Below are positions 847-26,520 of a stretch of DNA of 64,000 nt, piece by piece (position 1 is the first letter of the stretch; every line of letters begins with the position of its first letter). The position numbers and the translations under genes are program-made. Under the pieces are notes generated by a model. It was not told the origin of the DNA. It made no database searches and saw nothing but the letters and a program-made list of their open reading frames with translations. This stretch comes from Tubiluchus corallicola (lineage: Eukaryota; Animalia; Priapulida), in assembly GCA_030141605.1 (NCBI GenBank), contig JAQGDQ010000032.1, forward strand, positions 1 through 64,000, read 5' to 3'.

Positions 847-958
847 TCAGAAGATGGGCAGGCCAAGTTATACTACTGATGTTGAACGGATGTAGTGGGA
901 CCGGAACTTTGGTAATTACCGAGCTAAGATGTGATCCAAGACTGGCTTGTGTATCTCA
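847..958 (+). pseudogene. Degraded exon of a JmjC/Cupin_8-type gene (N-terminal part)
   Basis: Pyrimidine tract + AG before 847 and GTATGT donor at 959. With a frameshift it reads KMGRP/VIL...WLVYL, resembling the 'GxPV(I/L)..W(T/S)DEYL' segment that precedes Cupin_8 JmjC cores. It lies just before the better-supported exon at 1237. Confidence 0.35.
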
Positions 959-1236
959 GTATGTTTGTACATTTTTGTCGCTGAGAAAACGTAGCTGGAG
1001 GTAGGATGCCAGTTGTAATGGCCCACAAACATTTTTTGATGGTCAACCCTCTAATTGCTAAGCAGGTTTTGCATTACACAGCTTTGTAGCCAAGCACACA
1101 CTGTCTCCGCTATTCCTGCACTTTAAAATGACATGCTAATGATGCTGTGTAAACATGATTAAATTATTAAATAAGGTAATTATTTTTGATTTATCGTAAA
1201 TTATGTTAATTGTAGCTTCTTTACATACTGTTTTAG

Positions 1237-1390
1237 GTACAACTACAATGAGTTTCGAAAAAGAAGTCGAAATTGGAAAGAAAAAATTGATCAATAAATG
1301 GATTATTTGCAATGATAGTGGACGAATTTGTTGATGCGTACGAGTCAGAAGATTTATAACTTCTTGAAAGTGTGAAATCAGCAGTAAAAG
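1237..1390 (+). pseudogene. Degraded exon of a JmjC/Cupin_8-type gene
   Basis: TTTTAG acceptor and GTAGGC donor. With a frameshift it reads EKEVEIGKKK.../GLFAMIVDEFVDAYESEDL*LLESVKSAVK, matching the 'VExGKKE..M...EF...Y...D(I/L)Y(M/L)V' pattern recalled for invertebrate Cupin_8 JmjC proteins. In-frame TAA at 1357-1359 where Tyr is expected. Confidence 0.6.
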
Positions 1391-1659
1391 GTAGGCAGAA
1401 AAAGCAAGAAACAGTTGCCACTCATATTTATGGCTTAGGCTGACATAATTGAAAGTAGTGGACTATAACGTTTTGAAATAGTATTTTACCAGGTAGCGGT
1501 ATTCTGGCATTTGCATTAATTTAGTAAGATAAAGCTGATTTCTTGAAGTTTTTTGTTCATTTTTGATATGAATAATAATCTGGTGCATGAATACATCGTG
1601 CATGAATACTGTTAGAAATAGTTTTAGAAGTTGGGAATTTCAATTTTGAGTTTTCCAAC

Positions 1660-2060
1660 TTCTAAGATGATTAATAATCCATTTATTTGATAAAAATGTA
1701 ACTGCAAGGTTACAATTTCTGTTAACATTCCAGACAGACTATTGTTTAGCAGTTATGCTGAATGCTAATAAATACACACATATGACTTCGTCTGCATAGA
1801 AAATGCATGTTTTATAGGAATTTGCAGTTAGTAACGAGATGTGAATATTATTGTTTATATTATAATAAAGAATTGATGATATAGATTTTACAAGTTACAT
1901 TAGTTTCAAAGAACGAATGATCTCTGAATGAATGAAAGATTTTCAACATTCTCCGCAAACAAATTTTTTCAGTAAGTAGTACTTTGTTTATTTTACCAAT
2001 TTATCGTCACAACTTATATCAACTGCAATACAACACCGTTAAATCTGAATCTAAAAACAC
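1660..2060 (-). pseudogene. Remnant of a GPCR paralog: 3' flank plus helix-8 coding end
   Basis: 1660-1920 aligns with the GPCR1 3' flank at 3370-3596 (e.g. ttctaagat..ttaataatcc, gagatgtgaatattattgttta, aagaattga.gatatag.ttttacaa). At the expected offset (~110 vs ~105 nt), 2025-2055 resembles the FRSxxKRxLYC-coding DNA. Confidence 0.45.
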
Positions 2061-3236
2061 AAGAATGCGGTTAGGGTGGGGTGGAGGTGCTAATCTCGAG
2101 TACCTCCCCAGCCGCCAGAAGCTCTAGCTACTCTACTGGCTGCAGCTGATATTACACTGCTAATAAATAATAAATTTACCTGTTATTGCAAAATTATGCT
2201 ACAACTACAAAGACAAAATTAAAATTTGTTGATAGATGCCATCTTTCCAAAACTGAGAATAAAAAGAAAAGCACTACAAGACTAACCTGACTTTGCCACA
2301 CCTTGCCAGGTATTTTCAGTCTTGCGTGAAAAGTGTAAACACCTGCACAGAAAAGTTGCTTCAAGAAGACATTCGTGGTAACAGCAGTTGCTTGGCTATC
2401 CGTTATTTTACAGAAAAGTTTTCGCACTCTATATACAGTGCGTATAAAACATACGTAATGATATTCACATTATCGTTGGAATAAAAATTACTTTAATTAA
2501 TATCTTTCTTTCAAATTTATTCCTGTTTACATTAATAATGAGTACTTTATATACATAAATAATTTTCTTAATTTGCTTCACATAATATCATTTGATGGTA
2601 AATATAGAATGTGTATGTTTAAAGTAAATAAATATAATATATAATCTTAAAGCCTGTTTAGAATGAGGACTGGGTATGTTGTTTACTGTTGTGGCCACTG
2701 CCATACTGTTGTCTGTTGAACATTTATTTACTATTAGCATTACTTTCTTACTTTGAATCGTGATGGTACTCGCCATTTAATTTTCTGTTGTCTTTTGTTG
2801 TTATTATGTGCTTTTTAGTCTGTTCAAGACGACAAAGTTGTAACAGTTGAAGATAGTTTGTTCTTTCAGAGAAGAAAAGATGTGCACAGGTTTACAACTC
2901 GACTTGAGTTTTATCGCAAAGCGGATGTACTTCTTCGACTATCGATAGCAAATTGATAATCTGGCTCACTGGGCCTATTTGCTAAACCACATTGTGCTTG
3001 TACATTTGCAATATACATGTTATAGCAAGCTTATTACACATTTTGAGCTAAACAGTTTAAGTTTTAAACAAATAATAAATTTTAAGTAAAGTGTCAATAA
3101 TATTCATCCATTGTAACATTTAATTGCTTCCTCCATTGCAATTTGCTTCAACTATAACAAGGCCAAATAATCACATTGCTGCTACTTGGGAGATAAACCT
3201 TTCAACACATATATACATACAAATATAAGTAAATAT

Positions 3237-3541
3237 TTATAATATAAATATTTAAACAATAATATTCACACCTCATGACAACTGCAAATTGCTGTAAAAC
3301 AAGCATTTGACATGCCACCAAAGTCATACATGTGCATGGGATGGTAATAGAAATATATACATATATATTTCTAAGATCATTAATAATCCGGTTATCTGGT
3401 AAAATGTACCTGCAAGACTGTAATTTCTGTTACCATCCCATGTACATGTATGACTTTGGCGGCATGTCAAATGCTTGTTTTAACAGCAATTTGCAGTTGT
3501 CATGAGATGTGAATATTATTGTTTAAATATTTATATTATAA
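3237..3541. repeat. Long inverted repeat (arms 3237-3354 and 3423-3541, ~68-nt loop)
   Basis: The arms are reverse complements with 4 substitutions and 1 indel counted by eye. The loop region holds a further small palindrome, tagaaatatata-ca-tatatatttcta. Confidence 0.95.
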
Positions 3542-3626
3542 TGAAGAATTGAAGATATAGGTTTTACAATTTATATCAGTTAGAAAGAAGGAATGATATA
3601 TATATGTACCGAACCAATAGGAGTTC

Positions 3627-4622
3627 TTAAGTGGTGTTTACAGCAAGGTCATGTGTAGCAATCATGCTTACTGCGTCCTCATGTCGCCATGAGTGGCAAT
3701 ACAATATGCGTTTACAAGCTGACCTAAACTCGCTGTATCGAACAGTATAGATCAGAGGGTTAATCAGTGAATTGGCTATTATTAACGGATCCACACGAGA
3801 CATTGGCCACTTCCTAGAACCATTGTATGAATTTATTGATATTGCAAGGCTAACTGGTAGCCAGAATATCATTAATGATATAATCAGCAGTAAAATTGTT
3901 ATTGCAACCTTCATTTCATTTTTGAAGGAAATATACGGAGTTGTTGGTTCCTGATTTGCCTGAACAGCAATTGCCCTAATTTGACGGCGTGCCACTATAA
4001 AAATTCTTAAGTACAGGCATATAATTATGCAGAGAGGCAAGAAAAACATTGTTGTTACCAACATAACAGTATATCCAAACGTGTACATTTTGTAAGAAGC
4101 GCATTTGGTAAATATCTGATCTTTAGCTCCTATTCCTGCAAGTGGCAATAAGGTAATTACAGTAGCGTACATGACAATGGCCCCCATTGTAACCATTGCA
4201 TTTTTTTTTGAAATGTATTGGTAATAGAAGGGATGAACTATAGCTATGTACTGATCAAATGCAACTGCCAACAAAGAAAATGCTGATATGATTGCAGAAA
4301 ATGGTATAATTGATAACGACCAAAGGCAGAAATTTATGCTAGCTGTAAATGTCAGGTGTGAGTACTTAATAAATGTGAATATTATGAACAACAGTGAAGT
4401 AAAGACATCTGAAGCTGCCAACAGCGACAAGAAGAAGTATTTGATGTCCTTGAAACTGGTGTGTCTGCCAGTAAAGAATACTGCAAGAACTAAACTGTTG
4501 AGGAGTACTACCATCCCAAAAAGAAGGCATCTTAGCACAAAGCCTGTCATACGATGCCGATTATGCAAAAATGATGTGTTTGTCTCATTGCATTCTGCAG
4601 TCGGAAGTTGAGTGCAGTTCAT
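3627..4622 (-). CDS. Class A (rhodopsin-like) orphan GPCR, paralog 1, 331 aa, single coding exon
   Basis: Seven hydrophobic segments; N-glycosylation sites (NCT, NET, NTS), LAASD (TM2), C3.25, DQY (TM3), FWLP (TM6), NSLINPLIY (TM7), FRSAC helix 8. The ATG at 4622 (MNCT) matches the paralogs; the ORF-track start is an upstream GTG. Confidence 0.93.
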   Translation of the reverse strand: MNCTQLPTAECNETNTSFLHNRHRMTGFVLRCLLFGMVVLLNSLVLAVFFTGRHTSFKDIKYFFLSLLAASDVFTSLLFIIFTFIKYSHLTFTASINFCLWSLSIIPFSAIISAFSLLAVAFDQYIAIVHPFYYQYISKKNAMVTMGAIVMYATVITLLPLAGIGAKDQIFTKCASYKMYTFGYTVMLVTTMFFLPLCIIICLYLRIFIVARRQIRAIAVQANQEPTTPYISFKNEMKVAITILLLIISLMIFWLPVSLAISINSYNGSRKWPMSRVDPLIIANSLINPLIYTVRYSEFRSACKRILYCHSWRHEDAVSMIATHDLAVNTT

Positions 4623-4679
4623 CTTGCTCACGTATTCTGTAACATATTTATTATGAACTTTATTACTCTGACAAGTAGA

Positions 4680-5050
4680 TATAGATTTAGCTAAATTGAC
4701 TACAGCAAATTAGATATGAATGGTACATGACAAAGTAAACATAGCCTAATTAACTGAGCAACATGGGAAGTCGTGGAACTGATATGTTAGCAAGACTGGT
4801 GAGAATAACAGAGATAACAATATGAAATGTCACAGAGGGTGTAGCAATAAGTGATAACTAACACTGTCTGTTATGGTGATTAAAACAGCTATTTTTGTTA
4901 ATGACGGGAAATATGGTGGGGAAAAGAAGAGTAGGCAGATGATGAGAAGAATTGAAATGATGATAATTGGTAAAACGTGCAAGCAGAGAAAACGGAAAGA
5001 AGGTGATAGTGATATAACCAAGAGTAGCATGCAAAAGCTGCGCCCTCTTT
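4680..5050 (+). repeat. Paralogous purine-rich segment (copy of 11045-11410); probable decayed plus-strand exon
   Basis: Shared anchors agctaaattg, acaaagtaaa, atgggaa, attaaaaca, gatgagaagaa, catgca.aagc. The 11147 copy follows an AG and reads LWESGTHINNKGNNDGESD before stops. Confidence 0.55.
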
Positions 5051-5589
5051 AACTACATGCTATTCATTGTAATGTTAGCACCTTGGAATAATATAAATAT
5101 ATATCACCTCTGTACAACTAGCTAACGCTTTCCTAAGTTTTCTTTACCAGAAAGTTGTTTATTTGTTAACTACAACTTTGCTTCCCTCAAGAATAACATT
5201 AACAGATATCTCCTATCACTGGGAAACCAGTTACTGGACTGTCATGACATCTATTATTGAGGTCCTGTGTTCATATTCTTTCTTTTAAACTGTAGCTCTT
5301 AACGTCAAGTAGTGTGTTTTTGTGTTCTTTATTGTATTTTCGATCTTTCGTGCTTTCGATCTTTGTTTTCTAGTCCCTAAACAAAATTTAATAACAATAA
5401 AACAATGTTCATTTTATGGCAAATCTTAGAGACACCACAGTTCTCTCCACTCTGCCTCTTTTCTGTCTGTTCTCGGTCTCACTATTTTAATGCCTGAATT
5501 ATTTATAGCATTCTAAAATAAGCGAAGTGATTCATCTGTGTCAAAGTGACAGGTTCCAAAAATGATTTATGTAAGTAATAGCAGCAGCA

Positions 5590-6420
5590 CACTAAGGAAT
5601 GAGCGTAAATAAGGTTGAAACATAAGGCTGAGAGGTATGTAATAGTATGTGGTAGTATAAAGTGATCCAGGCCCTATGTAAGCCATTCTATGTTTTACAA
5701 GCACGGAGAGACTACATATGCTGATGCAAGGGTACATCAGTAAAAAGGACTAACTTAGTCCTAAGCAATTTTTCTGTAACAAAAGACTTGTAGGCAAAAA
5801 TGCTGGGAAGCTGTGATTGAAACTGCAAAATTATGAGAAGTTCCATGTGGGTGGTGCAGTACGCGAGCAACACATTTTATAATGAAGAAAGTAATTCAGT
5901 AAATGTCTAGCACCGAATAAACGTTATTTACAGTTTTTGGGTATAAAATTAAAACACATTTACCTGTCGCCAACCCCACTCCTCAGGTTTATCGTGCAGT
6001 ATTATTGAATATCATAGTCCCAAATAAGGCCCTTGTATTAGTGGTGTATTTATTTGGCGACTCTAAATGGGTGGCTCAAGGTCAAGACCACCTGCAATTA
6101 ACAGCTGTAACTGATACCCATCCAAACTGACATAATGTAATGAAACTAAACTGCCTTGAAGCGTTTTTTTGTGGTAGCCACCATCCATTTACTAACAAGT
6201 TACAGCATTACTTTATTAATATGCCACAGAGATGAGACGACATCTGATGTGTTAACCGTAGCAAGACAAATGATGTCCTCGAAATTAGTGTGTCTGTCGT
6301 TAAGGCTTACTGTGAGAACTAAGCTATTCTACTTATTTCTCACAAAGATAGAACTGTACTTCTTACATTACAAGTAGGTTACAGCTTGTATGTATCAGTA
6401 TCACTGCATTCAGCATCTGC
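5590..6420 (-). pseudogene. Near-full-length degenerate GPCR paralog
   Basis: The minus strand reads AECSDTDT (~6392-6415; cf. AECNETNT), NSLVLTVSLNDRHTNFEDI...SDVVSSL (~6225-6330; cf. NSLVLAVFFTGRHTSFKDI...SDVFTSL), HPF and RAL (~6020-6075) and N-LIYA (~5600-5616). These are collinear with the intact genes but carry stops and indels. Confidence 0.8.
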
Positions 6421-7232
6421 AGCTCAGATTTTATGCTGGTCTGCTGGCTCTGTTTCGCTGTTATTTGTAGTTCAGGTGTGTACACAAGGTAGTAATTGTA
6501 ACACTACTTACTATGACATTGGGCTGTTGGTCTTGGTTATACTTGCAACTTCTGATGAAGCAAAATGAATTTCTATGCAACAGTAACGACAAAGTAAAAG
6601 AGAAAGAACATTGACATTGACATTGACATTGACAGAGTATGTATGAGTGCAAGAACCTAACAGAAGTAACGTCAGCAAGTAGGAATAGCACACCAACAAG
6701 CAGCAATTGGCTTTATTCAAAATATGTTAGTAGCTTGCTGAAATAACAGTGACACAAAAATATGCTTTGCAAATTTGCAAAAACCTTTGTTAGTATAACT
6801 GTGTAGGCGTAAAAATAGCTGCCAGTCCGTGGTGAGTGAACATGGTTATAGCTAATGCTTTGACATTGAACTTATTAGTAATTAGCATAATAGTTGACTG
6901 TGTGACCTACTGTGCATTTTTGAATGTCATTTTGATGCTTTTGTAAAAAACGGTGTTTAGAATCAAAAGGAGGTTCTTGAATAATAATAGTTCATTTCGA
7001 TTCACGAATATGGTGATCACTTGAAAAAACAAAGCAGTTGTTGTGAAATTGAAAAAAGAAAGGATTCGCTATAGCGTAATGGTAACAGAAATTCATACAA
7101 ACAAGAATTCTGTAAGCAAACAGTGAAAATGGCAGTGGCAGCTACAGTGTGGTTGTATTTTTCAGTGCAATAAACAAAAAATGTTTGCTAATATGCGGTA
7201 ACGTTCACCCAACACAACTCCCAATACCCATC

Positions 7233-7303
7233 GTCGGGTGGCCGAGTGGATTAGATTTCGGACTGCAGTCACGCAGTTTTCAGTTCGAGATTAGCAGCTG
7301 CCA
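7233..7303 (+). mobile_element. tRNA-derived SINE head or tRNA pseudogene
   Basis: A-box TGGCCGAGTGG, a GACTGCAGTC anticodon-like arm and a B-box-like AGTTCGAGA. The acceptor and T stems do not pair properly, so it is not a functional tRNA. Confidence 0.5.
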
Positions 7304-7490
7304 ACGCCAAAACATATACCCTGCATGTTATTCGTTATTTGTGTGTTGCATCTTTACCTATATTGTTGTAAATGTAAATTGTTACATAACCGTTAGTGCT
7401 AATGTTATCTGTTAAAATGAGCGATGGTAAGAAAATGTTGTCTTTGTATTTTGTTATGTCTTTATATTGTGTTTGTCTCTTAGTAAGTTT

Positions 7491-7640
7491 ACTCACCTGT
7501 TTAACCTCTCTGAGAATCTGTTGCTGAATGGATATGCAAACTTACTACTTCTTTATACAACTTGCACGCTATTAATGTGTTGTCTGTTCTTCAGGTGCAC
7601 ATCTTACATTGTCTTATGTGTAATAACTGAAGTAGCTGAG
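7491..7640 (-). promoter_or_regulatory. Putative non-coding first exon with GTGAGT donor (7496-7491) of the GPCR family
   Basis: Aligns with 18195-18330 (actcacc, tgagaatctgtt, atgcaaac.tact, tatacaac). It sits upstream of the pseudogene at 5590-6420. Confidence 0.55.
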
Positions 7641-7675
7641 GGTTTCTTCGCATCTCTGTCTTAACTTAATTCTAG

Positions 7676-7951
7676 TGTCTTGATATTGGAACCATTAGTT
7701 TCCTTCAACGACAATAAGATTTGCCCGGGGCTTGACATTGTGCTTTGAGAGTGCCTTTTATGTGCCATTTGTCAGTTTTAGTTAATTTTATGTAGTGCTT
7801 CTTGAGAATTAATCCTAATGAAGCATAAAAGGATTTTGCGTTAGAGTTATAAGATTTATAGTAGATTTATAAGAATAAAAGATTTCGTTACACTCTTTAA
7901 TTCTCATAAGAAGGTCAGAATACTCTTTGTTATAATTTCACTGCCTCATGC
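7676..7951 (+). repeat. Duplicated segment (copies at 15038-15253 and, partially, 18448-18482) containing a candidate decayed host-gene exon
   Basis: Shared ggaaccattagt, gagtgccttt, ttgagaa, agcataaaa, ttgttataa..ctcatgc. One plus frame reads GTIS(F/L) in all three copies, and the 15 kb copy ends at a GTGAGT donor. Confidence 0.6.
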
Positions 7952-8867: not shown

Positions 8868-9030
8868 GTGGATGAATACTAAAGTGCCTTTTTTGGTAGC
8901 TTTACAAAGTTAATGCAAGTTGCAATGGTTTGGCTTTTAGCAAAGGAGCTGCAACATTGGTGCTTCACCATGACAATTCGGACTATCTCAACTACTTTGC
9001 ACATGGTTAGAAGGAAATCTTGTTTATAAG
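8868..9030 (+). pseudogene. JmjC catalytic (HxD) exon, copy A, disrupted
   Basis: AG...GTTAGT boundaries. Reads ILKCLF/GSFTKLMQVAMVWL/SKGAATLVLHHDNSDYLNYFAHG*KEILFI, with frameshifts and an in-frame TAG at 9008-9010. Matches the Cupin_8 'W(F)SxG...VLHxD..N..C...GxK' core. Confidence 0.8.
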
Positions 9031-9687: not shown

Positions 9688-10620
9688 CTATAAGTGGCAG
9701 TACAGTATGCGTTTACAAACTGATCTAAACTCTTTGTAGCGAACAGTGTAAATAAGAGGGTTAATTAGTGAGTTGGCTATCATTAAAGGTCCCACTCGAA
9801 ACATTGGCCATTTCTTAAATCCATTGTATGAATTGATTGGTAGCGCAAAACTCGTTGGTAGCCAGAATATAACTAATGATATAATTAACAGCAAAATTGT
9901 TGTTGCAACTTTCATTTCATTTTTGTAGGAAACGTTCGGAGTAATTCTTTCCTGATTTGCTTGAGCAGCAATTGACCGAATTTGACGGTGTGCCACAATA
10001 AATATCCTTAAGTACAGGCATATAATAATGCAGAGAGGCAAGAAAAATATAGTTGTTACCAGCATAACAATATAAGCAAACGTGTACACTTTGTAAGCCG
10101 CACATAAGGTAAATTCCTTATTTGCAGTTCCTACCCCTGTGAGTGGTATCAAGGTAATTACGGCAGCATACATGACAATTGATGCCATTGTAACTAAGGC
10201 CTTTCTTTTAGAAACATATTGATAGTGAAATGGGTGAACTATAGCTACATATTGATCAACTGCTACAACAAGCAAAGAAAATGCTGACACGATGGCAGAA
10301 AATGGCATAACTGATAATGACCACAGACAGAAGTTTTTGCTAGCGTTAACTCTCACGTTCGAGTACTTTATGAATGTGGCTATTATATACATCAGTGAAG
10401 TGAAGATGTCTGATGCTGCCAACAGCGACAAGAAGAAGTATTTGACATCCTTGAAACTGGTGTGTCTGCCACTGAAGAATACTGCAAGAACTAAACTGTT
10501 AAGGAGTACCACCATCCCGGAGAGAAGGCATCTTAGTGCAATGTTCCTCATATTCCAAGGATATGAAAAAGATGTATTTGTATCATTGCAATCTGCAATC
10601 TCAAGTTCAGAGCAGTTCAT
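9688..10620 (-). CDS. Class A orphan GPCR, paralog 2, 310 aa (C-tail truncated)
   Basis: Same motifs as paralog 1 (LAASD, DQY, FWLP, NPLIY). The ATG at 10620 (MNCS) aligns with the paralogs. The ORF-track extension to 10728 crosses a conserved splice acceptor and is probably intronic. Confidence 0.92.
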   Translation of the reverse strand: MNCSELEIADCNDTNTSFSYPWNMRNIALRCLLSGMVVLLNSLVLAVFFSGRHTSFKDVKYFFLSLLAASDIFTSLMYIIATFIKYSNVRVNASKNFCLWSLSVMPFSAIVSAFSLLVVAVDQYVAIVHPFHYQYVSKRKALVTMASIVMYAAVITLIPLTGVGTANKEFTLCAAYKVYTFAYIVMLVTTIFFLPLCIIICLYLRIFIVAHRQIRSIAAQANQERITPNVSYKNEMKVATTILLLIISLVIFWLPTSFALPINSYNGFKKWPMFRVGPLMIANSLINPLIYTVRYKEFRSVCKRILYCHL

Positions 10621-10634
10621 CTTTCTAGAATATC

Positions 10635-11718: not shown

Positions 11719-13528
11719 GTGAGGAAACATATTGGTCTATCGCTCCGCCCCCGCTGCAACGTAAGCACGCTAAGCAGCATTCGGGACAACAGCTCACGCA
11801 GGACAATAACTGTCTAAGCTAGACTAAACTAAACTAAACAACATGACAGTCACAACTAATGTTTAATCAGCAGACAAACTGATTGTTCTTTTTCATAAAC
11901 ACAAATTTGCAGAGCAGCAGCTATTTTAACATAAAATCAACACTTCAAGTAGCCAAAAAATGACTTTTCAATTTAAACAGAATGTAGAGACGAAGTTTCA
12001 AAGCACTACAAAATACAGAGACATAAATATAATAAAGAAACTAAGCCAGTTAGCCTTGCTTTACAATAAATGAGCAACAAAAATATTAAGTTTTTCTTGC
12101 CTTTAAGCATACGAACAGCAAGCCTGCGATGTAATTTTCAATATTAATGAATCATGTGCTCGTCTGCAGGATTTATTAAGTTTTTGTATTTTTCCGTTTG
12201 TCAAGCTGCAGAAATGTAATAAATTTGACTGTTACATTCCATAGACGACCCTTATATTGAATGCCCGAGTCACATAAATCCCAATGGTATCTTTTAACCT
12301 TGATTATAACCAGAAAAACAGCGTTAAATTAGCTAATATTATATTGATGTACAACATAAGTTTTGACCATATTTGAATTAATTTTGACTGTGAAGATCTC
12401 ATTAAGGTTTATAAAAACTGGCCAGAAAAGAAAACATTTTGTTTTGTCCTTATTTAAAGTTAATCAAATAGTTGTTTTTATCTAACTTTCAAAGCTATAA
12501 AGTAAACTAAACTGCGTATTTTTTTGATTACAAAATGGTTTAATCAGCAACTCATAGACATAAGCGTTGTGCATTTCTTCCTATAAACGAAACTAGACTA
12601 TATATTTCCACCAATGCACTTGCAATTTCAATTGACAATAATAAAATCTAGAACCAGGCTAATATTTCTTCTGCTAACTAATGAAAAGTTGAGCATTTTT
12701 CATAACAGTGTTAGACGGAGCTGTACCTAAATGTCCCGAACTTACCTGCTGCAGGGGTGTGTGAAATAACTTGCACGCTGATTAGGCTGAAAATGATTGA
12801 CATTATGTTAGACGTCAATTTCATATGACTTAGGACAAATGTCCAAATAAAGCTACGCAAATAAACAGTGAAAGAAGGATTTCGAGGGAAGACAGTATTA
12901 TTAAGAGGGATCCTGGAAAACACCTACCATAAAAGTAACAGCGAAGACTGAACAGAAAGAGTTGAAACAGAGAAATGTATAATATGGAAATGGCAAGTAA
13001 AATCGATAAACGTCTTCTCTGCATTAAAATGCACATCAGTCGTGACCAGTGTCAGTGCCAATTCAATATCAATTTTAAACATTTTAGGCGTTTGTAGATG
13101 GTAATTATACAGTAGGGTGGCAAGCGGTATGCTTTATATTCTGTCTTTTTTAACAGAATATATGTTATAATACATAAATCTAGTTTCGTATGGTAGGCTA
13201 TAGTCTATATATTCAGTTGCTCAAATCACCAGAATGATTGCAGCTTTTCTGCTGCTTATTTCACAAAGTTTAAAAATCTCCATACCATCATACGCTGATA
13301 CTTTTTAAATCTAAACTTGTTGTTATGCTGTTTGTGGAATGTGCGTGTAACGAGCTACAAAGTAATTCGCCAAAAAATCCTATCCCTGGACGTCCTAATT
13401 GTTCCATTTGTTAGTTCTTTTGACTTTTATAGGCTTTGTGGGTTCCTCTTTGCTAATATTTTGCAAAAACTTCATCACTTCATCATTCATCATATCAACA
13501 CACAATCTTTTTTTCAATTTACGTAAAG

Positions 13529-13681
13529 TGGGAATACTGACTTTTTATGTGATGGTTTTACGAAGTTAATACAAGATGGTGACTTATGGTTCAGCAAAGG
13601 AATGGCAAACAACGGTTCTTCATTATGACAATGTGGACAATATCACCTGTGTGGCAGAAGGAAATCTTTCTTGTTAATAAG
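13529..13681 (+). pseudogene. JmjC catalytic (HxD) exon, copy B, frameshifted
   Basis: Reads FLCDGFTKLIQDGDLWFSKGMA/TTVLHYDNVDNITCVA/KEIFLVNK, then a GTTAGT donor. It has a 1-nt insertion and an 8-nt deletion relative to copy C. Confidence 0.85.
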
Positions 13682-13790
13682 GTTAGTTTATGATTAAAGA
13701 AAAGTAAAATTCAAATATTTTAATTGATATATAGTTAACAGCATAGTTAATTATAATGAATAATACAATTATAATAATTGTACTCAGTTA

Positions 13791-14640
13791 TTTCGGTATG
13801 AATGTGATTCCTTTAAATGCTTCACCAGGAACAGTTTTTAAAGCTTTATATTAACAGTGCAGATCATACTAAAAGTTTGGTTTTTGCTTTATTGGCCATT
13901 CTTTGCCATTCATATAAATTAAATTTGAGTAAATATTTGTGTCCTAAATGGGGATTTGTCAGCTTTCTGAGATTTGTCAGTAGCACTGCATCAGAGTAAA
14001 AACAAGTCTGCTAAATTCTGTGCTGCTGGTTAGTGTTTGCCTTCAGATTTTCCCTAAATAACCATAGTGTTGGGGTTTACATTTACATTAGATGCTTTTT
14101 CATTTCAGGTTTTTAGCTTCCTGTATTTGAATGAAGATGGCAGCATCTGTTGGCGAGAGTTGTACGATGTGAGCGCAGGCAGCTTCATCATGTTGTTTTC
14201 AATGAATTTATAACTCATCTCGCACAGAGAGCATTTTATTTTTATTAATTTCATATGTTATCATGTTTCAGTCTGCATTCAGTGACGCTCAAAATGTCTA
14301 AGGAAGTACTACATTTCAGAAATTAATTTTCCTTAATTTAAAATGTTTATTATTAAATGTTAACAGTACTAGTTAATATTTGCTCAACAAACAAAAGTTA
14401 ACAATAACAATGAAAGCGTTAGAGGTACGGAAGCAGTTCTTTTCTTCAGGTTTTAACACACAAAAACGTTTTTAAGTTCTATGAATTATTTACTAGTGTT
14501 TACTATAGTTTTTACCAGTTTTCATAAAAGAATCTGAGTTCTTGTTATTTTTAAAGTGAATCTTTTTATACCTATCATTGTTGTTAGTAATACCAGTCTT
14601 TCAAAGTGAATTTCTAGCACACTGGGACGTGTTTGAATTC
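13791..14640 (+). repeat. Segmental direct duplication, partner at ~20215-21065
   Basis: About 850 bp of collinear high similarity (e.g. cctaaatgggg, aaataaccatagtgttggggttta, gtacgatgtgagcgcaggcagcttcatcatgttgtttt). It contains several small plus-strand pseudo-exons. Confidence 0.92.
14109..14168 (+). pseudogene. EF-hand exon (VFSFLYLNEDGSICWRELYD), copy 1
   Basis: TTTCAG acceptor, GTGAGC donor, 60 nt, phase 0/0. It carries the x-x-N-x-D-G-x-I-x-x-x-E EF-loop pattern, with Tyr at the position normally held by Asp. Confidence 0.7.
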
Positions 14641-14889: not shown

Positions 14890-15027
14890 TTATTATCCAC
14901 GGGTGCCTTCATGATAAATCCTCGTGCATGGTCGAAAAATCAGCGGTAGGTTTTTTAAGTCTTTGATTTGACTTGGTCTGGAATTAGCTCCACGACCACC
15001 TGCCAATTGGTATCATTGAGCTATACC
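14890..15027 (-). mobile_element. Degenerate tRNA-derived SINE, probably related to the copy at 48262
   Basis: The minus strand begins GGTATAGCTCAATG (A-box-like) and contains GTCAAATCAAAGACTTAAAAA, similar to the GTAAAACCACAGACTTTAAAAA core at ~48331. Confidence 0.5.
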
Positions 15028-15290
15028 TCTCCCAGTCGGGAACCATTAGTCTCCATAACAGGAAGATCGGCCCGAAGTTTATCCAAGTTTGTGAGTGCCT
15101 TTCTTGTGTCATTTTTGCAGGTTTGGATAATTAAATAGTGTTTGTTGAGAACTGAATCTTATGTAGCATAAAAAGAATTGTATTAGGGTTAAAAGAAAAT
15201 GTGCAAGAAAGTTCGATCAGGACACTCATTGTTATAAGTTTCACATCTCATGCAAATGTATTATGGCCAACCTGAAACATTATAAGAAAC

Positions 15291-15386
15291 AGCAAAGGAA
15301 AGGCAACATCGATTCTTCACTATGACAATGTGGACAATATCACCTGTGTGGCAGATGGGCAGAAGGAAATCTTTCTTTTTGATAAG
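15291..15386 (+). pseudogene. JmjC catalytic (HxD) exon, copy C, 5'-truncated but open
   Basis: Reads SKGKATSILHYDNVDNITCVADGQKEIFLFDK, then a GTTAAT donor. The 5' part of the exon present in copies A and B is missing. Confidence 0.85.
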
Positions 15387-16958
15387 GTTAATTTATGATT
15401 AAAAAAACTAAAATTCAAATACTTTAATAGATGTATAATTTAAAGCATAGCTGCCTACATATATACTTTGAAGAATCTAATTATAGGCGTATATATTTCT
15501 TGTACAGTATTGTACACTTCCCACCCACATACAAAAAATTATGGACCTAGCCCAAAAACTGTAGGAGATCCAGCCTAACGAGAAAAGAAGAACTTCCGCT
15601 CCATGACCTTTGACCCTGGGGAAGCGGGAAATACAGAAATCCCACTACCTGGGAAACGTACTCTGTGTTTTGTGACCCTAATCTCGTGCTTGCGTTAATA
15701 ATTAAAGAAACAAAAAGGTACAAATAAATAAATAATAATAATAGTAGTAAATAAAAGTTAAAAGTGTGAGTAAGTCAAGAAGAAAACATTTCCTATTAAA
15801 ATGCATTATAGCAATGGTCACAGTACTATACACCAACAAATCTAAACAAAATACAAGAAGCATATCTTACATAATAGCCCAGCAATAGTATGAGGATTCT
15901 TCACTTAAAAGAAAGCAGGATGATTTTATACGTAAAAGAATACATTTTTAACGCCATAATAATGCTAAAGTCTTTCTCGTAACTAAATAATAGCTCGAAA
16001 CTTAATTAATGGCCAGAGAGCGCAGCCAGCATTGGCATCACAACTGAACATAATTATTGTCAACAGCACAAACATTTCACGAACGAGATGTGTTGTACGC
16101 GTTTACGAAACTGAAGTAAAGTGCTGCTGTACAGCAATGGTACACAAATCTTTGACTATGGCAAAATTTTAAGTTTTAAAATTTAAATTTGAAGTTTACC
16201 AATGTGCTTACGCATGAGCTCTCAAATGTGCGTGCTACATCACGGCTGAACCACATCTGAACTGGAACGCACAGCGCCCTTTAAATGTGCAACACGTTTC
16301 CAAGATGCAGATGCTAGTGCCCATCTGACTAACGAATGGCAAAATGCATGTAACAGCGAAGAACTAGCCCTGCAAATGCAAAATTTGAGTTCTGCAGTAA
16401 TAATACTTTCATTTGAGTCATTATTAAAAAACGATATGTTTCTTTTCAATATTTTATAGATTAGATTGTTTTGAGCTATAGTTTAAGATTCGGTCCTGTT
16501 TTTCTTTAACATTGCCGGCTAAGAATAGATGTAAGGCCCGAGAGATCAATAGACACCTGTTAATTGAAAACACATTTCACACAAATGCAACAAAAAAGCA
16601 CAACACAAGTTAACTTCATCAGTGGTATAACTAAAAATCCAATGTTTGAAATTTGAATTTTGACAACTGGATATATAAAGTCACAGTGTTATTTTTTGCA
16701 AATTGTGTTACTACAGTAATAACATTTCAATAAATAGTAACTTTCTACTTTTTAGTAAAGAAAATACCTAAGAAAATGTAACATAAATGTAAACAGTAAA
16801 ACATGTAAAATTTTTAACTGATGTGACACAAACATTGCAGATTTTTATGCTTTTAGTTAATGTTGTTTCATTTTATGCAGCGTTCTACTGGAACGCATTA
16901 CCATTGTTAAGCGAGATCTCACTATTGCTATTGTATAATAGCTGGTCAATAAGAATTT

Positions 16959-17951
16959 TCAATTGGTGATTACTTCAAACCTATTTATAGCATTTGCACT
17001 TGGCTCACATTCGTTTTGCCAAGAGTGGCAGTACAGTAAGCGTTTACAACCTGATCTAAACTCTTTGTATCGCATAGTGTAAATGAGAGGGTTGGTGAGT
17101 GAGTTGCTTATCATTAAAGGTCCCGCACGAGATATTGGCCATTTCTCAAATCCATGATATGCATTGATTGGTAGTGTAAGACTAACTGGTAGCCAGAATA
17201 TAATTAATGATATAACCAGCAGTAAAATTGTTGTTGCAACTTTCATTTCATTTTTGAAAGAAACATATGAAGTGCTTGGTTCCTGGTTTGCTTGAGCAGC
17301 AATTGCTCGAATTTGATGGCGTGCTACAATAAATATCCTTAAGTACAGGCATATAATAATGCAGAGAGGCAAGAAAAATATTGTTGTTACCAGCATAACA
17401 GTATAAGCAAACGTGTACACTTTGTAAATCGCACATAAGGTAAATTCCTTATTTGCAGTTCCTACCCCTGTGAGTGGCATCAAGGTAATTACAGCAGCAT
17501 ACATGACAATTGATACCATTGTAACTAAGGCCTTTCTTTTAGAAACATATTGATAGTGAAATGGATGAACTATAGCTACATATTGATCAACTGCTACAGC
17601 AAGCAAAGAAAATGCTGACACGATGGCAGAAAATGGCATAACTGATATTGACCACAGACAGAAGTTTTTGCTGGTATCAACTCTCAGGCCCAAGTAGTGA
17701 ATGAATGTGAACATTATATACAATAGTGAAATGATGACATCTGATGCCGCCAGTAGTGACAAGAAGAAGTATTTGATGTCTTTGAAACTGGCGTGTCTGC
17801 CATTGAAGAATACTGCAAGAACTAAGCTGTTGAGGACTACCACCATTCCTGAGAGAAGGCATCTTAGCACAACACCTTTCATATCCCAGACTTGCAAATC
17901 AGATGTGTTTGTCTCATTACATTCTGCTACCTCAGGTTTAGTGCAATTCAT
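16959..17951 (-). CDS. Class A orphan GPCR, paralog 3, 330 aa
   Basis: 7TM with LAASD, DQY, FWLP, NSLTNPLIY and FRSGC helix 8. Uninterrupted ORF. Confidence 0.93.
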   Translation of the reverse strand: MNCTKPEVAECNETNTSDLQVWDMKGVVLRCLLSGMVVVLNSLVLAVFFNGRHASFKDIKYFFLSLLAASDVIISLLYIMFTFIHYLGLRVDTSKNFCLWSISVMPFSAIVSAFSLLAVAVDQYVAIVHPFHYQYVSKRKALVTMVSIVMYAAVITLMPLTGVGTANKEFTLCAIYKVYTFAYTVMLVTTIFFLPLCIIICLYLRIFIVARHQIRAIAAQANQEPSTSYVSFKNEMKVATTILLLVISLIIFWLPVSLTLPINAYHGFEKWPISRAGPLMISNSLTNPLIYTMRYKEFRSGCKRLLYCHSWQNECEPSANAINRFEVITN

Positions 17952-17965
17952 CTTTCTAGTATGTT

Positions 17966-18200
17966 CTGTAACATAATTACAAATATCATCAGTAATTAAA
18001 TCTTAAGCCATAGCCAACAAGTTTTCAATGTACGTGTTTGAAATTGTTAGTCTTGGCATTTAACATCGTTTACTTTCTTTTATCAAAATTTGGTAGTAGC
18101 GTAATGGACATAGAAAATTGTAAAAGCTATTTACAAGCGAAAAGTGAAAAGAGTTTGCCTTTTAAGTATATTAAACGAAAAAAATACTTGTTATACTCAC
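17966..18200 (-). other. Predicted 5'-UTR intron of GPCR3 (235 nt)
   Basis: GTGAGT donor at 18200 and TGTTACAG acceptor 14 nt before the ATG. The upstream exon shares tttgcatg..cattgtccca.gtttt with 10880-10980. Confidence 0.7.
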
Positions 18201-18712
18201 CTCTGTGTATCATGTGAGAATCTGTTTTTGAGTGACTAAAATGCAAACGTACTGTCTCTGTATACAACCTGTCAAAGCTACTGATGGATTATGTGTCATT
18301 TATTTGCATGCCTTGCATTGTCCCAAGTTTTAATACCTGCCGTTCAGTTGCATGCCTTACATTGTAATGCACCTTTAATGTCTGCCTTTCAGTAGTCAGG
18401 AGCACATTATCCCGTGCTTACTTGTAATCTTCTTAATTGAGTTGTCATGTCTTAATCTTGGAACCATTAGTTTCCATAGAAAATAAACTTGTATAAATAA
18501 GTTTGCCTCGTTTTAAGCAGCTGTGTTGGACAAGCTGAAATATTATAAATCCATGACAGTTGGGATGCAAGTTATGGCATCGTAGCTTTGACACACAAGG
18601 TGGGCACGTGGCTAGCCCATTGCTCATTTTAGGCTGAGTAGACCTAGGAAGGCAGTCAGAAAAAGGGACAGGAAAATTTGAGTGCAGAAAAATTGTTCAT
18701 GGCCATTTAGGA

Positions 18713-18886
18713 ACCAGACACGAATTCAGGTAAAAGAGTCACAGAAAAAAGGCACAGGAAAAAAGAAATAACCTTAATCCAACAAAAATTAATTGTGACT
18801 TTTTTCCTGTAAATTTTTTCCCAGTCAAAATTGTAACTTTTTCCCGTGGCTTTTTCCTGTGACTTTATTACGGTTACACCAGACAC
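18713..18886. mobile_element. Foldback-type MITE with repeated CACAGGAAAAAA / TTTTTCCTGTG motifs
   Basis: Inverted arrays of the motif on the left and right, flanked by a 9-bp direct repeat ACCAGACAC (18713-18721 and 18878-18886) that may be a target-site duplication. Confidence 0.6.
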
Positions 18887-20553
18887 TTGACTCGTAAGAA
18901 TGAATTAAAGAACTCGTAAGAACACGTTACTTTTGTATAGTGCCCTCCCGTGCTATATGGTTGTAGTACAAAATTTTACGAATCACCCTGCCTAGTTGTC
19001 TAACATTGAGAGAATCATCATCCACTGTCTGGTTAATATGAAACTCTTAAAATGGCTTGAGTTTTTTGGAAGAAAATTAATTATTTTTGTGAGTAAAATC
19101 TTGTAAATAAAACTGGGACAACTCGCTACAGCCTGTGTTCTTCTGCTGCTGAGCTCTTAATATTATCTTGCATTTCACAATTGGCGTAATTTAATAATAT
19201 ATATTAAAAGTTTATTGTTAATCTTGATATTGATAATATACATTATTTGGCTCATTATTTGATCCGGTCGCTTTCCAGTTGGCAGGTAGTATAAACAACT
19301 AAACAATGCATTGTACGTTGGTTTCTTTTATAGCACGCCCAGCATTAAAGGATTTTGTATAGTGGACTGTGAAGTCAGCAGCCTAATCAGTCGGTCATAA
19401 TCATTCTTGGTGGCAGTACTATTTCTGAAAGAATTTTTGTGAAGTGATTTTAAAATTATCTCTTGACATTTTGTTGTTATTTGTTTGGGATCATTGTCAC
19501 CGTGACAACTGGCTTACTTCGTCACTGACAGTGCACAATTATATCTAAGGTCGCTTTTGTATCATCTTTTTATCTTGTTTCTCTCTTACTGTATCCACAC
19601 TATCCTAGTCTATAAAATTTCAATTTTGTTATTTGGTCTTGTCTGCCTCACAAAAATTGTTATGATGTGATAAATGTGATCACTTATGGGCTCCTGGATG
19701 TTAACTGATATGACCTAAGTAAAATATGCTTTGCTTTATCTAGCACTTAAGTTCTCGTGTTGATAGTATAGTATGTTATCCAGCATTTAATTAAAGCTAT
19801 AGTGGTTTGTTAAAGACATCAATTTTTTCCATCTAAGTGATTTGGGGATACTGATGCCCCTTTTATTGAGTTTACTGTTTACTGAGCAGAGTTATTGTTG
19901 GCTACTCAGCACATATAAACACTCAGCAAACATATTCATATTATGATATTTTATATTTTCTGTTTGCTCTGTTTTTAGAGTCGATCTTTTTTTGGCAGCT
20001 GAAAATTAGATGCAGTATTACGTATAATTATTTTTTCAGCAGAAAAGCTAAAAATATTAGGTGTTTACATGTTCTTACTGTCACTAGCTATTTAAACAGT
20101 AATGTGTGCATTTTTATTGCCTGGAAACGAGATATCAGCGCTCCATTACCCCTTAATGTTTAAAAATTTGTTCATTATATGTATAGTTTCTATTTTGCAT
20201 TTGGTATTCATTTATTTCGGTACGAATGTGTACATTTTGTACGAATGTGATTCCTTTAAATACTTCAACAGGAACAGTTTTTGAAACTTTATATTAACAG
20301 TGTAGATCATACTAAAATTTTGGTTCTTTGCTTTATTTGACATTCATTATTGCCATTTATATAAATTAAATTTGAGTAAGTATTTTCGTCCTAAATGGGG
20401 CTTTCTAAGATTTGTCAGCAGCACAGCATCAAAGTAAAAAACAAGTCTGCAAAATTTTATACTGCTGGTTGGTGTTTGCCTTCAAATTTTCTGTAAATAA
20501 CCATAGTGTTGGGGTTTAGATTTACATCAACATTAGATGCTTTTTCATTTCAG

Positions 20554-20612
20554 GTTTTTACTTCCTATATTTGAATGAAGATGGCAGCACCAGTTGGCGT
20601 GAATTGTACGAT
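20554..20612 (+). pseudogene. EF-hand exon, copy 2 (1-nt deletion)
   Basis: Same splice sites as 14109-14168. It is 59 nt long and reads ..FLYLNEDGSTSWRELYD after the frameshift. Confidence 0.7.
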
Positions 20613-23600
20613 GTGAGCGCAGGCAGCTTCATCATGTTGTTTTAAATGAACTTATCCCATCTCGCACAGAGAAGATTTTATTTTTATTAATTTAACATGT
20701 TATCGTTTTTCAGTCTGCTTTCAGTAAAACCCAAAATGTCTAAGGAAGTGCTAGATTTCAGAAATTAATTTTTTTTAATATATAATGTTTATTGTTAAAT
20801 GTTAATTGTAGGTTGTTAATTGTTTGCTTAATAAACAAAAGTTAACAAATCAACGAAAGCCTTAGAGGACTGGAAGCAGTTCTCTTGTTTAGGGGTTCAC
20901 AATACAAAAACATTTTTGAAAGTGAACTATTTACTAATTCTCACCAGTTTTCATAAAAAATCTGAGTTCGTTTATTTTGAAAGTGAATCTTTTTTATATG
21001 TATCATTGTAATTAATAATACCAGTCTTTCACAACAAATTTCTAGCACCATGAAGTCTGTTTGAATTTGCTTTTTATTTACTGTTTTTACTTGAGACTAT
21101 AGGTAGTTCAAATTTTATATAACAAGCATTTACTAGAGCATGGTAAATCTTATCTTTTTTTCACCCTTTTTAACGTTTGTGTGAAATACATTATTTTTAT
21201 TGAAAACTTACTTTTTAATCAGTAACTTCCTTAATACAGTTAGTATACTGTTTTGCCTTTAACAGAGCGAATTTTTGGACAGAATTATTTTTATAAACAT
21301 TTTGTTTGAAATCTGTTTATTCACTTTGAATAATAATGGGTGAAAAAGCATAGCGTTATGTATTTGAATTTTTGTATGTCTATTTCTTTAATTATGTTGA
21401 CTGTAATATAGTTTTCACCACGATAGTCCAGATTTAGTGTCAAATTTTATTATTTTTTAAAATAAATATGTAGGCTAACTAAATGGGTTAGTTTTATAAA
21501 TGGTATTGATTGGATGGATTGCAAACAAAAAGATTAATTTTTAGTGCCAGAAGGTTTTGAACCAGCGTACAAGTTTATAGGTACTATAATTGTTTAAAGT
21601 AAAAGTCCTAAAAATTGAAGGAATGGTTTCTGGCTGACTGTTAATAATATGCATACTTGAAAAGATCTAGTGAATTTAATTAAATATGATTTTCATTTAG
21701 AGCTTATGTATTCATAAAAATAATTTACAAACTCTTAAATGAAGACTGAAGCTATCAAACTGATAATCGATTTATTGTGACACCGAACATAATTCGTACA
21801 GCATTGCTGATTTAAAAATTTATGGTTTTGCAGCCCTTTGTGCGAGCCAAATTAACATTTCCTTGTTAAATTTCTTCAAGTAGTTTCATTGTTAAGAGCT
21901 TTGCTTTGATTAACGAGCTAATGTCCTCGCAAATGGAGAAAAGGCTACGAATTTGACAGTAATAAGAAGTGCAGTTTTTGTTTAAGCCAAAGCACCGAAT
22001 TTCACAGTAAGTGTATGAACAAATGATGATTTATTTCACTGCAGCCACTCAGCCATTTTTCATTTCTGCATTTGTATTCGTTGACAATCATTGTCGCGCT
22101 GGCAACACAAGCCATAGTTGGCAAACATAAAGATAAATATGAGCGCAGCACTGTTGCCATTTCACACTCTTCTTTAATAAACTAAATATTGAAATAATCA
22201 TATTTGACAGTAAATTTGCCTATTAATCACTGCGTGTAGCCAAGGCTTATTGTTCATGTCCATAAATTATGCTGTGTTGATATGCAAGCAAGATATGAAA
22301 AACTCTTTGCAGCAGGCTTTGTAACTCAGTGCTGAGGGGGAGCTGTTGTTGTATTAGTGCTGTTCTGTGATAAACTGAGACTTGATTCAGTGTATTGTTG
22401 TTCGATTGTACAAAAATTAAGATCTAATTTTCTTTTTAAATCAGCAGGTTTATTTGCAATGGGAGCAATTTAATTACCTCTATAATTGTTCACTATCAGT
22501 AATCTTCAGTAATATCAATTAATTACTACACATCCTGTTATAAAAATAGACTGCTAAAACACTACCGCCGCTAACTTACACTTTTATTTTAGTATTGTGA
22601 GTGCATGAAGGGTGGATGTTTAATGATCTTTCTCCATCTAACTGTTACATTGTTACTAATACTTTGCTGTATATTGTTTTTGTATGAGGCAAATAAAATT
22701 CAAATATTAGGTGTAAAGTATGCATATCGTTTAAATATGTACGTCAGAAATGAAAAACACACTGAACGCTGCTAATTAAAGTATTTATGCAAAAGTTATA
22801 TTTTTCCCCATAATTGTTTCTAACTTAATAAATTTTCGGTTAATAGAACATGTCCACAACGCAACAGACATTTCGATGGATACATTTTTGGTTTTTTAAC
22901 GGTGTAGCGAGTAGTAAAACATAATTACTAAAGAACTTGCACTGATGCAAAATCAATTTTTCCCATATTTGTGTGCCTGTCTTTATTTGTGTTTGTGTAT
23001 TCAAATACACTGGTGAGTTGACAGGCGCAGAATTTTTAATTAGCTCCCATTCTTTAGTTAAATCTGCTTAGCAATTGGCATGGCTCAGGGAGATACAGAA
23101 ATTCGTGTTAAGCAGGCTTCGGTATTAATTCCGACTAATCCCGATTTGCTTTCTAGTGCCGGGCATAAATTTTACGCGAAGATTTTTGCATAATTGACAA
23201 TGTCGCACAGTGCTGTCAGCATTAATTTATTATTTCAGCTGAAGCAGTAGGTTAATCCTTCTGTCGTAAGGCTTACGGTTAGGCAATTCTATACTTTGCC
23301 TTGAAACATGTTTGTGAATGACGAATTTGTTTAAAGGTCAAATTTAACGTGAAAACAAGTTTTCTTTAATTAAAAGAGCTAACTGTAACTTAAAATTTGG
23401 CTCTAATTTTATTAAATTTCATGGCTCTTTCTTATTGAAACCGGGCCTCGAAGTTGCAATTTTCTCCAAAACATTTGTTGGGTTTTGCTCGTGAAACTGC
23501 GGAAAGTCACAGTCTAACTATGGGCTCCTTGAATACCGTGTCGTTTCTGTGACACTGAATTTGTAAACAACGTAGCTAAGGGGTGTATTTCGCTGGCGTC

Positions 23601-25865: not shown

Positions 25866-26520
<655 letters not shown>

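What the first reader, a model, noticed from the sequence alone, without database searches (positions are those of the whole stretch)
847..21065. GPCR array nested antisense inside a decaying JmjC + EF-hand host gene
Seen: the ORF track shows only the GPCRs, but the spacers hold plus-strand pseudo-exons with splice sites. These are a pre-core JmjC exon (1237-1390), three copies of the catalytic HxD exon (8868, 13529, 15291) and two copies of an EF-hand exon (14109, 20554). GPCR2 and GPCR3 each lie just downstream of an HxD-exon copy on the opposite strand. Inference: an ancestral GPCR sat in the intron after the HxD exon, and tandem duplication of ~4-7 kb units carried host exons along. The host pieces then accumulated stops, frameshifts and deletions while three GPCRs stayed intact. 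This would be a receptor family expanding inside, and at the cost of, its host gene.
Basis: partly seen in the sequence, partly recalled or inferred. Interest (0 to 1): 0.75.

Follow-up and report, generated by a model that had tools for sequence, protein, structure and literature searches.

The report
Receptor array inside a dead gene
Three receptor genes with open reading frames lie on the opposite strand among repeated, broken exons of an oxygenase gene in an invertebrate; local duplications likely carried those exons along after this copy of the oxygenase had already died, while an intact-looking copy exists elsewhere in the genome, so this is likely an ordinary receptor expansion rather than one that destroyed its host gene.

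Summary
Three intronless class A GPCR frames (minus strand, dN/dS 0.26-0.44) are interleaved with plus-strand remnants of a 'secreted JMJD5-like'/HRJD-type JmjC + EF-hand gene: exon 2, three HxD exons and two EF-hand exons, with exon ends that match intact homologues. Flank homology supports two tandem duplications that carried host exons along. But sequencing runs hold another, intact-looking copy of the host exons. All three HxD copies share changes at near-invariant residues and diverge about neutrally, so this host copy was likely dead before or at the first duplication: no 'cost to the host gene' is shown. The oldest GPCR lies before the first HxD exon, which modestly favours that intron as the origin. 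Whether the GPCRs were ever nested in a living gene is untested. Antisense nested GPCRs and tandem GPCR expansions are known; this scan noted an antisense GPCR array in another genome and the host family in three others. Real, but low interest.

The parts
1237..1390 (+). Decayed host exon 2 (pre-core JmjC), AG..GT kept, frameshifts and stops
   Evidence: same phases (2 in, 1 out) as exon 2 of L022 and L050
3627..4622 (-). GPCR1, open frame, 331 aa, deepest lineage; splice acceptor 14 bases before the ATG
6010..6450 (-).
   Evidence: 28 vs 10 informative sites side with GPCR2/3
7106..7714 (-). 5' region of the decayed GPCR, homologous to the 5' regions of GPCR2 and GPCR3; donor-like site at 7496
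7688..7910 (.). Non-coding segment U, which follows the GPCR 5' region and lies upstream of HxD copy A
   Evidence: 76% identical to 15039-15238 over 195 columns
8868..9030 (+). HxD exon copy A, most decayed (frameshift, stops, Cys lost)
9688..10620 (-). GPCR2, open frame, 310 aa; two early stops remove 20 tail residues
10978..11445 (-). Decayed GPCR start (ATG>ATA, acceptor lost) plus GPCR1-type 5' region; likely junction of the first duplication
13518..13681 (+). HxD exon copy B: 1-base insertion, 8-base deletion, likely lost acceptor at 13517
   Evidence: lesions covered without gaps by contigs of X1/X2
13796..14639 (+). Duplicated block with EF-hand exon copy E (acceptor at 14108; loop position 1 is Tyr; stop at 14211)
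15039..15238 (.). Second copy of segment U, with a GPCR 5' fragment at 14636-14667 before it
15291..15386 (+). HxD exon copy C: 3' half only, frame open, donor kept, no acceptor
   Evidence: left junction bridged by contigs of X1, X2 and X3
16959..17951 (-). GPCR3, open frame, 330 aa; 3' flank and 5' region homologous to those of GPCR2
20239..21067 (+). Duplicated block with EF-hand exon copy F (starts 20554, 1-base deletion)

Best explanation
This is a tandem array of five intronless class A GPCR copies (three open, two decayed) lying antisense inside a broken copy of a secreted JMJD5-like (HRJD-type) JmjC + EF-hand gene, and the repeated host exons are likely passengers of two local duplications that happened when this host copy was likely already dead. 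Shown: identity, order and splice phases of the remnants, the homology blocks, near-neutral divergence of the HxD copies, purifying selection on the GPCRs, and another genomic copy of the two host exons with consensus residues. Inferred order of events: (1) GPCRs sat in intron 2, before the HxD exon, and diverged into a GPCR1 type and a GPCR2/3 type; (2) the host gene was duplicated, one copy stayed intact-looking elsewhere and this copy lost constraint; (3) a GPCR2/3-type copy came to lie after the HxD exon, and exons 4-6 were lost; (4) duplication D1 (from the GPCR1 start codons to the GPCR2/3 5' region) made HxD-A + GPCR2 and HxD-B/C + GPCR3; (5) duplication D2 made B..E and C..F, after which B..E lost its GPCR and C lost its 5' half. 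The three open GPCRs are predicted to be working orphan receptors, likely chemosensory, each with a non-coding first exon.
For: Remnant identity. Exon ends match intact coral-type and other genomic homologues. D1 markers cluster at JC 0.26-0.39 (GPCR2/3 dS 0.26, 3' flank 0.32, U 0.29, GPCR1-type 5' region 0.39); D2 markers at 0.10-0.19; GPCR1 vs GPCR2/3 dS is 0.54-0.56. Other copy: contigs at depth 538 (X1) and 34 (X2), against 160-220 and 11-13 for the window's own pieces, align to C with 13 other letters and no gap over 96 bases; by my hand translation of the loose end and listed differences they read AVLWFSSGA, DNINC, DGRKE, and a canonical EF loop D-S-N-E-D-G-S-I-S-W-Q-E that runs on in frame past the point where E and F both break off; run X5 of another study shows four of the same EF letters. 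A, B, C share K and A at columns with S114/121 and T121/121; B and C share N>T; E and F share D>Y. pN/pS 1.13 (A/C), 1.27 (B/C); pooled 0.73, fits 1 (p 0.36), rejects 0.1 (p 6e-7). GPCR dN/dS 0.26-0.44 and a conserved acceptor 14 bases before each ATG. Intron-2 origin needs one deletion (after 18483, needed anyway for exons 4-6); intron-3 origin needs a second loss of an HxD exon left of GPCR1.
Against: The other copy is seen only as two short exon pieces; it is not shown to be whole, expressed or elsewhere rather than next door, and 41 difference rows were not displayed. X3 showed no such contig at either exon. E/F alone gives pN/pS 0.15 (3 synonymous, 2 replacement changes), which fits constraint, and the pooled count only marginally rejects 0.3 (p 0.045). 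The introns upstream of A and B show no homology (score 28, null maximum 39), so the link from U to intron 2 is indirect. The intron-2 preference is a parsimony argument by one event. No GPCR was found in 19 of 19 long loci of distant animals. No ligand, expression or tissue data exist here.
Confidence: 0.5

Rival explanations
1. Never nested in a living gene: an older GPCR cluster and an already dead duplicate of the JmjC gene were brought together (a GPCR block inserted into the dead copy, or the copy landed in the cluster), and the same duplications followed.
For: All host copies look unconstrained from their common stem on. GPCR1 vs GPCR2/3 (dS 0.54) is older than the difference between the other host copy and C (13 of 96 letters). 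More GPCR paralogues exist outside the window (two X1 contigs at 17355-17407 that match none of the three). Decayed IR copies flank the array, so the region duplicates receptor genes generally. Distant intact homologues carry no GPCR.
Against: Exon 2, HxD and EF exons keep their order, strand and splice ends across 20 kb with two GPCR types between exon 2 and exon 3, which a block insertion must hit by chance; no insertion ends were found.
Confidence: 0.27
2. One reading: a GPCR sat in the intron after the HxD exon of a working host gene, and its tandem duplication broke the only host copy.
For: GPCR2 and GPCR3 both follow an HxD copy with homologous spacers; C..F keeps the order HxD - GPCR - EF; E/F pN/pS is low.
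Against: An intact-looking host copy exists in the same organism's runs. Shared changes at invariant residues precede the first HxD duplication. GPCR1 and the decayed fourth copy lie before any HxD exon, and no HxD trace lies between exon 2 and GPCR1.
Confidence: 0.15
3. The repeats or the lesions are assembly errors.
For: No assembly or raw reads could be inspected; no listed contig spans the whole stretch.
Against: Copies differ by 15-30%; contigs of X1/X2 cover B's insertion, B's deletion and the B-E and E-C junctions without gaps, and X3 (another study) covers C's left junction with 0 differences; X1 and X3 have depth in 30 of 30 bins of 1-20 kb.
Confidence: 0.02

Closest known systems
Secreted JMJD5-like family (Iyer et al. 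2010, PMC2938197, passages read) / HRJD genes (Cao et al. 2019, PMC6390904, passages read)
   Same: The remnants match a pan-invertebrate Cupin_8 family whose full-length members show GHxxPLG, the WFSSGGTKSVLHxD core, an EF-hand-like tail and xDEL-type ends; the paper describes a GHxxxhG motif, conserved cysteines and lineage-specific expansions.
   Different: Here only dead exon copies; exon 1 with the GH motif and exons 4-6 are missing. I did not compare with HRJD sequences themselves; the link to that name came from earlier notes of this scan.
Opposite-strand nested GPCRs of vertebrates: P2RY12/P2RY13 in MED12L, GPR82 in CASK, CXCR6 in FYCO1 (table in PMC3933685, passages read)
   Same: Single-coding-exon GPCRs inside introns of an unrelated gene on the other strand, more than one per host.
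   Different: Those hosts are working genes and their exons are not repeated; here the host copy is dead and its exons were duplicated with the receptors.
Lineage-specific expansions of class A GPCRs in invertebrates (PMC11886862, passages read)
   Same: Tandem copies, a mix of full-length, truncated and pseudogene members, no close relatives outside the lineage (one hit, 29% identity).
   Different: That survey covers Lophotrochozoa; the passages I read do not mention host exons carried inside the arrays.
Unprocessed (duplicated) pseudogene (general knowledge, recalled)
   Same: Introns and splice sites kept, stops and frameshifts, near-neutral divergence, an intact-looking paralogue.
   Different: Its exons were re-duplicated as passengers of a selected neighbour.

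Membership tests
Class A (rhodopsin-like) GPCR | Full-length 7tm_1 match above the curated cut-off | tested here: met
   95-113 bits vs 30.5, profile 2-260 of 260, 3 of 3 frames
Class A (rhodopsin-like) GPCR | TM3 D/ERY and TM7 NPxxY motifs (motifs recalled) | tested here: met
   DQY variant and NPLIY in all three translations
Chemosensory lineage-specific GPCR expansion | Tandem paralogues without close orthologues elsewhere | tested here: met
   5 copies in 15 kb; one relative at 29% identity among 4206 candidates
Chemosensory lineage-specific GPCR expansion | Expression in sensory cells and response to a chemical cue | not testable with these tools
   No RNA holder listed
Secreted JMJD5-like / HRJD family | JmjC core with HxD and family-specific sequence and exon ends | tested here: met
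Secreted JMJD5-like / HRJD family | Signal peptide and N-terminal GHxxxhG motif | tested here: inconclusive
   Exon-1 profile finds nothing above the null in 1-23 kb; the exon may lie left of the window or be lost; present in relatives
Secreted JMJD5-like / HRJD family | Conserved cysteines | tested here: met
   Both core Cys columns (120 and 121 of 121) kept in B, the second in C; both lost in A
Secreted JMJD5-like / HRJD family | Orthology to named HRJD sequences | not tested
   HRJD accession lists and supplements were not read
Working JmjC oxygenase gene at this locus | Complete HxD...H triad in a spliceable open frame | tested here: not met
   Exons 4-6 absent, every remnant broken or truncated
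Nested (intronic, opposite-strand) gene | Lies between exons of another gene on the other strand | tested here: met
   All five GPCR copies lie between host exon 2 and the last EF exon
Nested (intronic, opposite-strand) gene | The host is, or was when it held the GPCR, a working gene | not testable with these tools
   No assembly held; contigs of the other copy are 167-596 bases
Unprocessed pseudogene | Disabling lesions, neutral divergence, intact paralogue | tested here: met
   the paralogue is shown for two exon pieces only, and E/F alone has low pN/pS

The most novel reading that the evidence does not exclude
The GPCR family was born nested in intron 2 of a living HRJD-type gene and the intact copy still carries it; duplicating the whole host made a spare copy whose death freed the nested receptors to multiply across exon borders, which a working host would forbid. 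The dead host would then be a nursery for receptor expansion, and its repeated exons a dated record of each step.
Probability: 0.3. Interest if true: 0.5.

Novelty: new member of a known kind. Interest (0 to 1): 0.25.

Why it matters
As it stands it is one more tandem GPCR expansion in an invertebrate, with the small bonus that neutral passenger exons date and order the duplications and show two receptor copies dying while three stay under selection. It would matter more if the intact host proves to carry the same receptors: the locus would then be a natural test of whether a working host gene limits the expansion of its nested genes and whether host duplication lifts that limit.

Tried and rejected
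No whole genome is held, so no genome-wide tblastn for the intact copy. No RNA holder was listed; this says nothing on expression. The RNA-guess run X6 gave 7 laid contigs, one of them 163 bases with 19 differences to GPCR2 and none on host exons: not used as evidence. A word-based protein search with copy B found nothing and PDB gave 0 hits for it; the HMMER search of representatives was needed (28 hits, 2 of them unrelated repeat proteins by my reading of P0003, P0026 not read). Depth in X1 is about 320-370 at 1-2.3 kb but 150-200 on unique contigs of 3.5-20 kb; I considered a hemizygous array but contig depth also halves in heterozygous stretches, so no claim. The ESM Atlas lead for copy C (Cupin_8, score 0.90) agrees but is only a lead; the Atlas could not read the GPCR. 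The 847-958 stretch has AG..GT ends but no match to the exon-1 profile: not counted as host. PANWYH at 14999 resembles the third-ligand motif but lies in a repeat that many contigs share: rejected. No homology was found after 18483 to the U side of A, B or C (scores 27-42, null 39-40). Pfam scan of 70 of 84 listed frames beyond 21 kb gave 3 weak hits under cut-off. Paper searches: nested genes + GPCR + 'within an intron' + host gene, 0 papers; JmjC + EF-hand + signal peptide terms, 0; passenger-exon phrasing, 3 and 3 papers, none relevant by title and abstract start; other listings. These searches miss most subscription papers, so absence from print is not shown.
Full report
What is there. The window is AT-rich animal DNA; earlier notes of this scan call the genome priapulid-like, which I did not test. 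Three minus-strand frames, 3627-4622, 9688-10620 and 16959-17951, are full-length 7tm_1 receptors. They are 72-80% identical as proteins, with dS 0.26 for GPCR2/3 and 0.54-0.56 against GPCR1, and dN/dS 0.26-0.44. Each has a conserved splice acceptor 14 bases before the ATG, and donor-like sites lie at 10879 and 18200 (and at 7496 for a dead copy; none was found for GPCR1), which predicts a non-coding first exon. GPCR2 stops 20 residues early. The family is lineage-specific: one relative at 29% identity among 4206 candidates; the best PDB matches are adrenergic receptors, with TAAR, cannabinoid and adenosine receptors close behind, so no ligand class can be named. Two further copies are dead: a 5' half at 6010-6450 of the GPCR2/3 type, and a start plus GPCR1-type 5' region at 10978-11445.

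The host remnants. The unaltered frame 15291-15386 hits Cupin_8 at E 6.7e-6 and JMJD7 in the PDB at E 0.9. A profile of four window peptides found 28 proteins among 1.84 billion; six long ones carry Cupin_8, and a second search gave 152 relatives from sponges to amphioxus, a Priapulus protein among them. They show GHxxPLG, an EF-hand-like tail and xDEL-type ends. This fits the 'secreted JMD5-like family' of PMC2938197 (passages read), also named HRJD in PMC6390904 (passages read); that name came to me from earlier notes and I did not test it by sequence. With a 121-sequence profile and exon-sized sub-profiles, exon 2 and three HxD copies are clearly above the null, EF copy E is marginal and F is below it, and exons 1 and 4-6 are not found. 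Genomic homologues from metagenomes give the exon plan: exon 2 in phase 2 and out in phase 1, HxD exon out in phase 0 after xK, two or three more exons, then an EF exon that starts at the same residue as here. The window's remnants keep these ends, except C, which has lost its 5' half and acceptor.

How the pieces are related. Self-comparison gives these blocks: GPCR2 with flanks (9239-10985) matches GPCR3 with flanks (16491-18336); A matches B and C; B matches C into the intron; 13796-14639 matches 20239-21067; the GPCR1 5' region matches 10978-11445; the 5' region of the dead fourth GPCR matches that of GPCR3 and runs on into segment U (7688-7910), which recurs at 15039-15238 before C. Distances fall in two groups, JC 0.26-0.39 and 0.10-0.19. 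I read them as duplication D1, which made A + GPCR2 and B/C + GPCR3 with its junction near 10980, and a later D2, which made B..E and C..F with its junction near 14640. B..E then lost the 4.8 kb that holds GPCR3 in C..F. High-copy repeats at about 11.7-13.0 and 15.5-16.5 kb pad the spacers. Contigs of X1/X2 bridge B's lesions and the B-E and E-C junctions, and X3, from another study, bridges C's left junction, so these are not assembly errors.

Was the host killed by the expansion? Likely not. Laying runs on 13480-15460 showed contigs at about three times the depth of the window's own pieces (538 in X1, 34 and 26 in X2) that align to C and to E. By hand translation of the listed letters against the codon map, that copy reads AVLWFSSGA before the HxD motif, DNINC and DGRKE after it, and has a canonical EF loop beginning with Asp; it continues in frame for the 30 letters shown past 14198, where E and F both leave it. 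X5, from a third study, shows four of the same EF letters, and also holds decayed A-like and B-like pieces and GPCR pieces about 9-15% diverged, so the decay is likely older than that split. Copies A, B and C all have Lys and Ala where 0 of 121 relatives do (S114, T121), B and C share N>T, and E and F share D>Y. A/C and B/C diverge with pN/pS 1.13 and 1.27; pooled with E/F it is 0.73, compatible with 1 and not with 0.1. Against this: E/F alone gives 0.15 on five changes, the pooled value only marginally rejects 0.3, the other copy is seen as two short pieces with 41 rows hidden, and X3 showed no such contig. On balance this locus is a spare copy that was likely dead before or at D1.

Which intron? 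Before D1 the order was already GPCR - U - HxD - GPCR, so the units alone cannot tell. The ends favour intron 2: the deepest lineage (GPCR1) and the dead fourth copy lie before any HxD exon with no HxD trace left of them, and on the right one deletion after 18483 can remove U, a further HxD and exons 4-6 together. An intron-3 origin needs one more loss. This is weak parsimony, and the introns before A and B share no detectable homology. Whether the GPCRs ever sat in a living host is open. GPCR1 vs GPCR2/3 (dS 0.54) looks older than the split from the other host copy (13 of 96 letters; 22 over about 158), which fits either nesting in the ancestor or later insertion of an old GPCR block. Two X1 contigs (summed depth 598) and one of X3 show GPCR paralogues that match none of the three and side with GPCR1 at three of six listed sites; they may or may not lie in the other host copy. 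None of the 19 loci of 5 kb or more, out of 53, has a GPCR match (best E 3.2); many are redundant, and only about three distinct genes span introns 2 and 3 in this exon plan. They are distant animals.

Comparison with what is known. Opposite-strand nested GPCRs, more than one per host, are listed for MED12L, CASK and FYCO1 (PMC3933685, passages); nested pairs are common in mammals (PMC11694760, passages); tandem lineage-specific class A expansions with truncated and pseudogene members are widespread in invertebrates (PMC11886862, passages). This scan noted an antisense GPCR array in a channel intron of another animal and judged it ordinary. My searches did not find a paper on host exons repeated inside such an array, but passenger duplication is the expected result of tandem duplication. 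No supplements were read; those of PMC6390904 and PMC2938197 could confirm the family name.

Verdict. Observation confirmed with corrections; interpretation partly supported. New member of known kinds; interest 0.25. The bolder reading, a dead spare host that freed its nested receptors to multiply, has about 0.3 probability and would deserve 0.5; one look at the intact copy in a whole assembly would decide it.

Noticed in passing
window 27749-29197 (+), with 30-454 and 24833-25439 (+): An intronless ionotropic-receptor-like frame (Pfam Lig_chan E 1e-17) has two decayed same-strand copies that bracket the GPCR/JmjC array: a second receptor family duplicating in the same region.
   Followed up: partly
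window 3236-3542 and 18729-18872: Palindromic, MITE-like elements; the first sits just after the GPCR1 stop and has a partial copy at 1659-1933.
   Followed up: no
window about 11725-13045 and 15528-16509: Very high-copy repeats (depth up to 200,000 against 160-350) inserted in the array.
   Followed up: no
window 847-958 (+) and about 23875-23957 (+): Exon-like stretches with a pyrimidine-rich AG and a GT end; neither matched the JmjC profile or Pfam.
   Followed up: partly
window 13851-14114 in run X3: The F-type flank contig has depth 36 in X3 against 9-13 for neighbouring pieces, but 1x in X1; possible copy-number difference between individuals.
   Followed up: no
window 1-2300 vs 3500-20000 in run X1: Contig depth is about 320-370 left of the array and 150-200 inside it; hemizygosity or high heterozygosity cannot be told apart with contigs.
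   Followed up: partly
P0073, P0020, P0117, P0125: The family has members labelled as barnacle, horseshoe crab and sea spider proteins, although PMC2938197 and PMC6390904 describe it as lost in arthropods.
   Followed up: no
window 25850-26500, 33900-34430, 37500-38300, 51100-51700: Long tri- and tetranucleotide microsatellites that produce spurious long frames.
   Followed up: no
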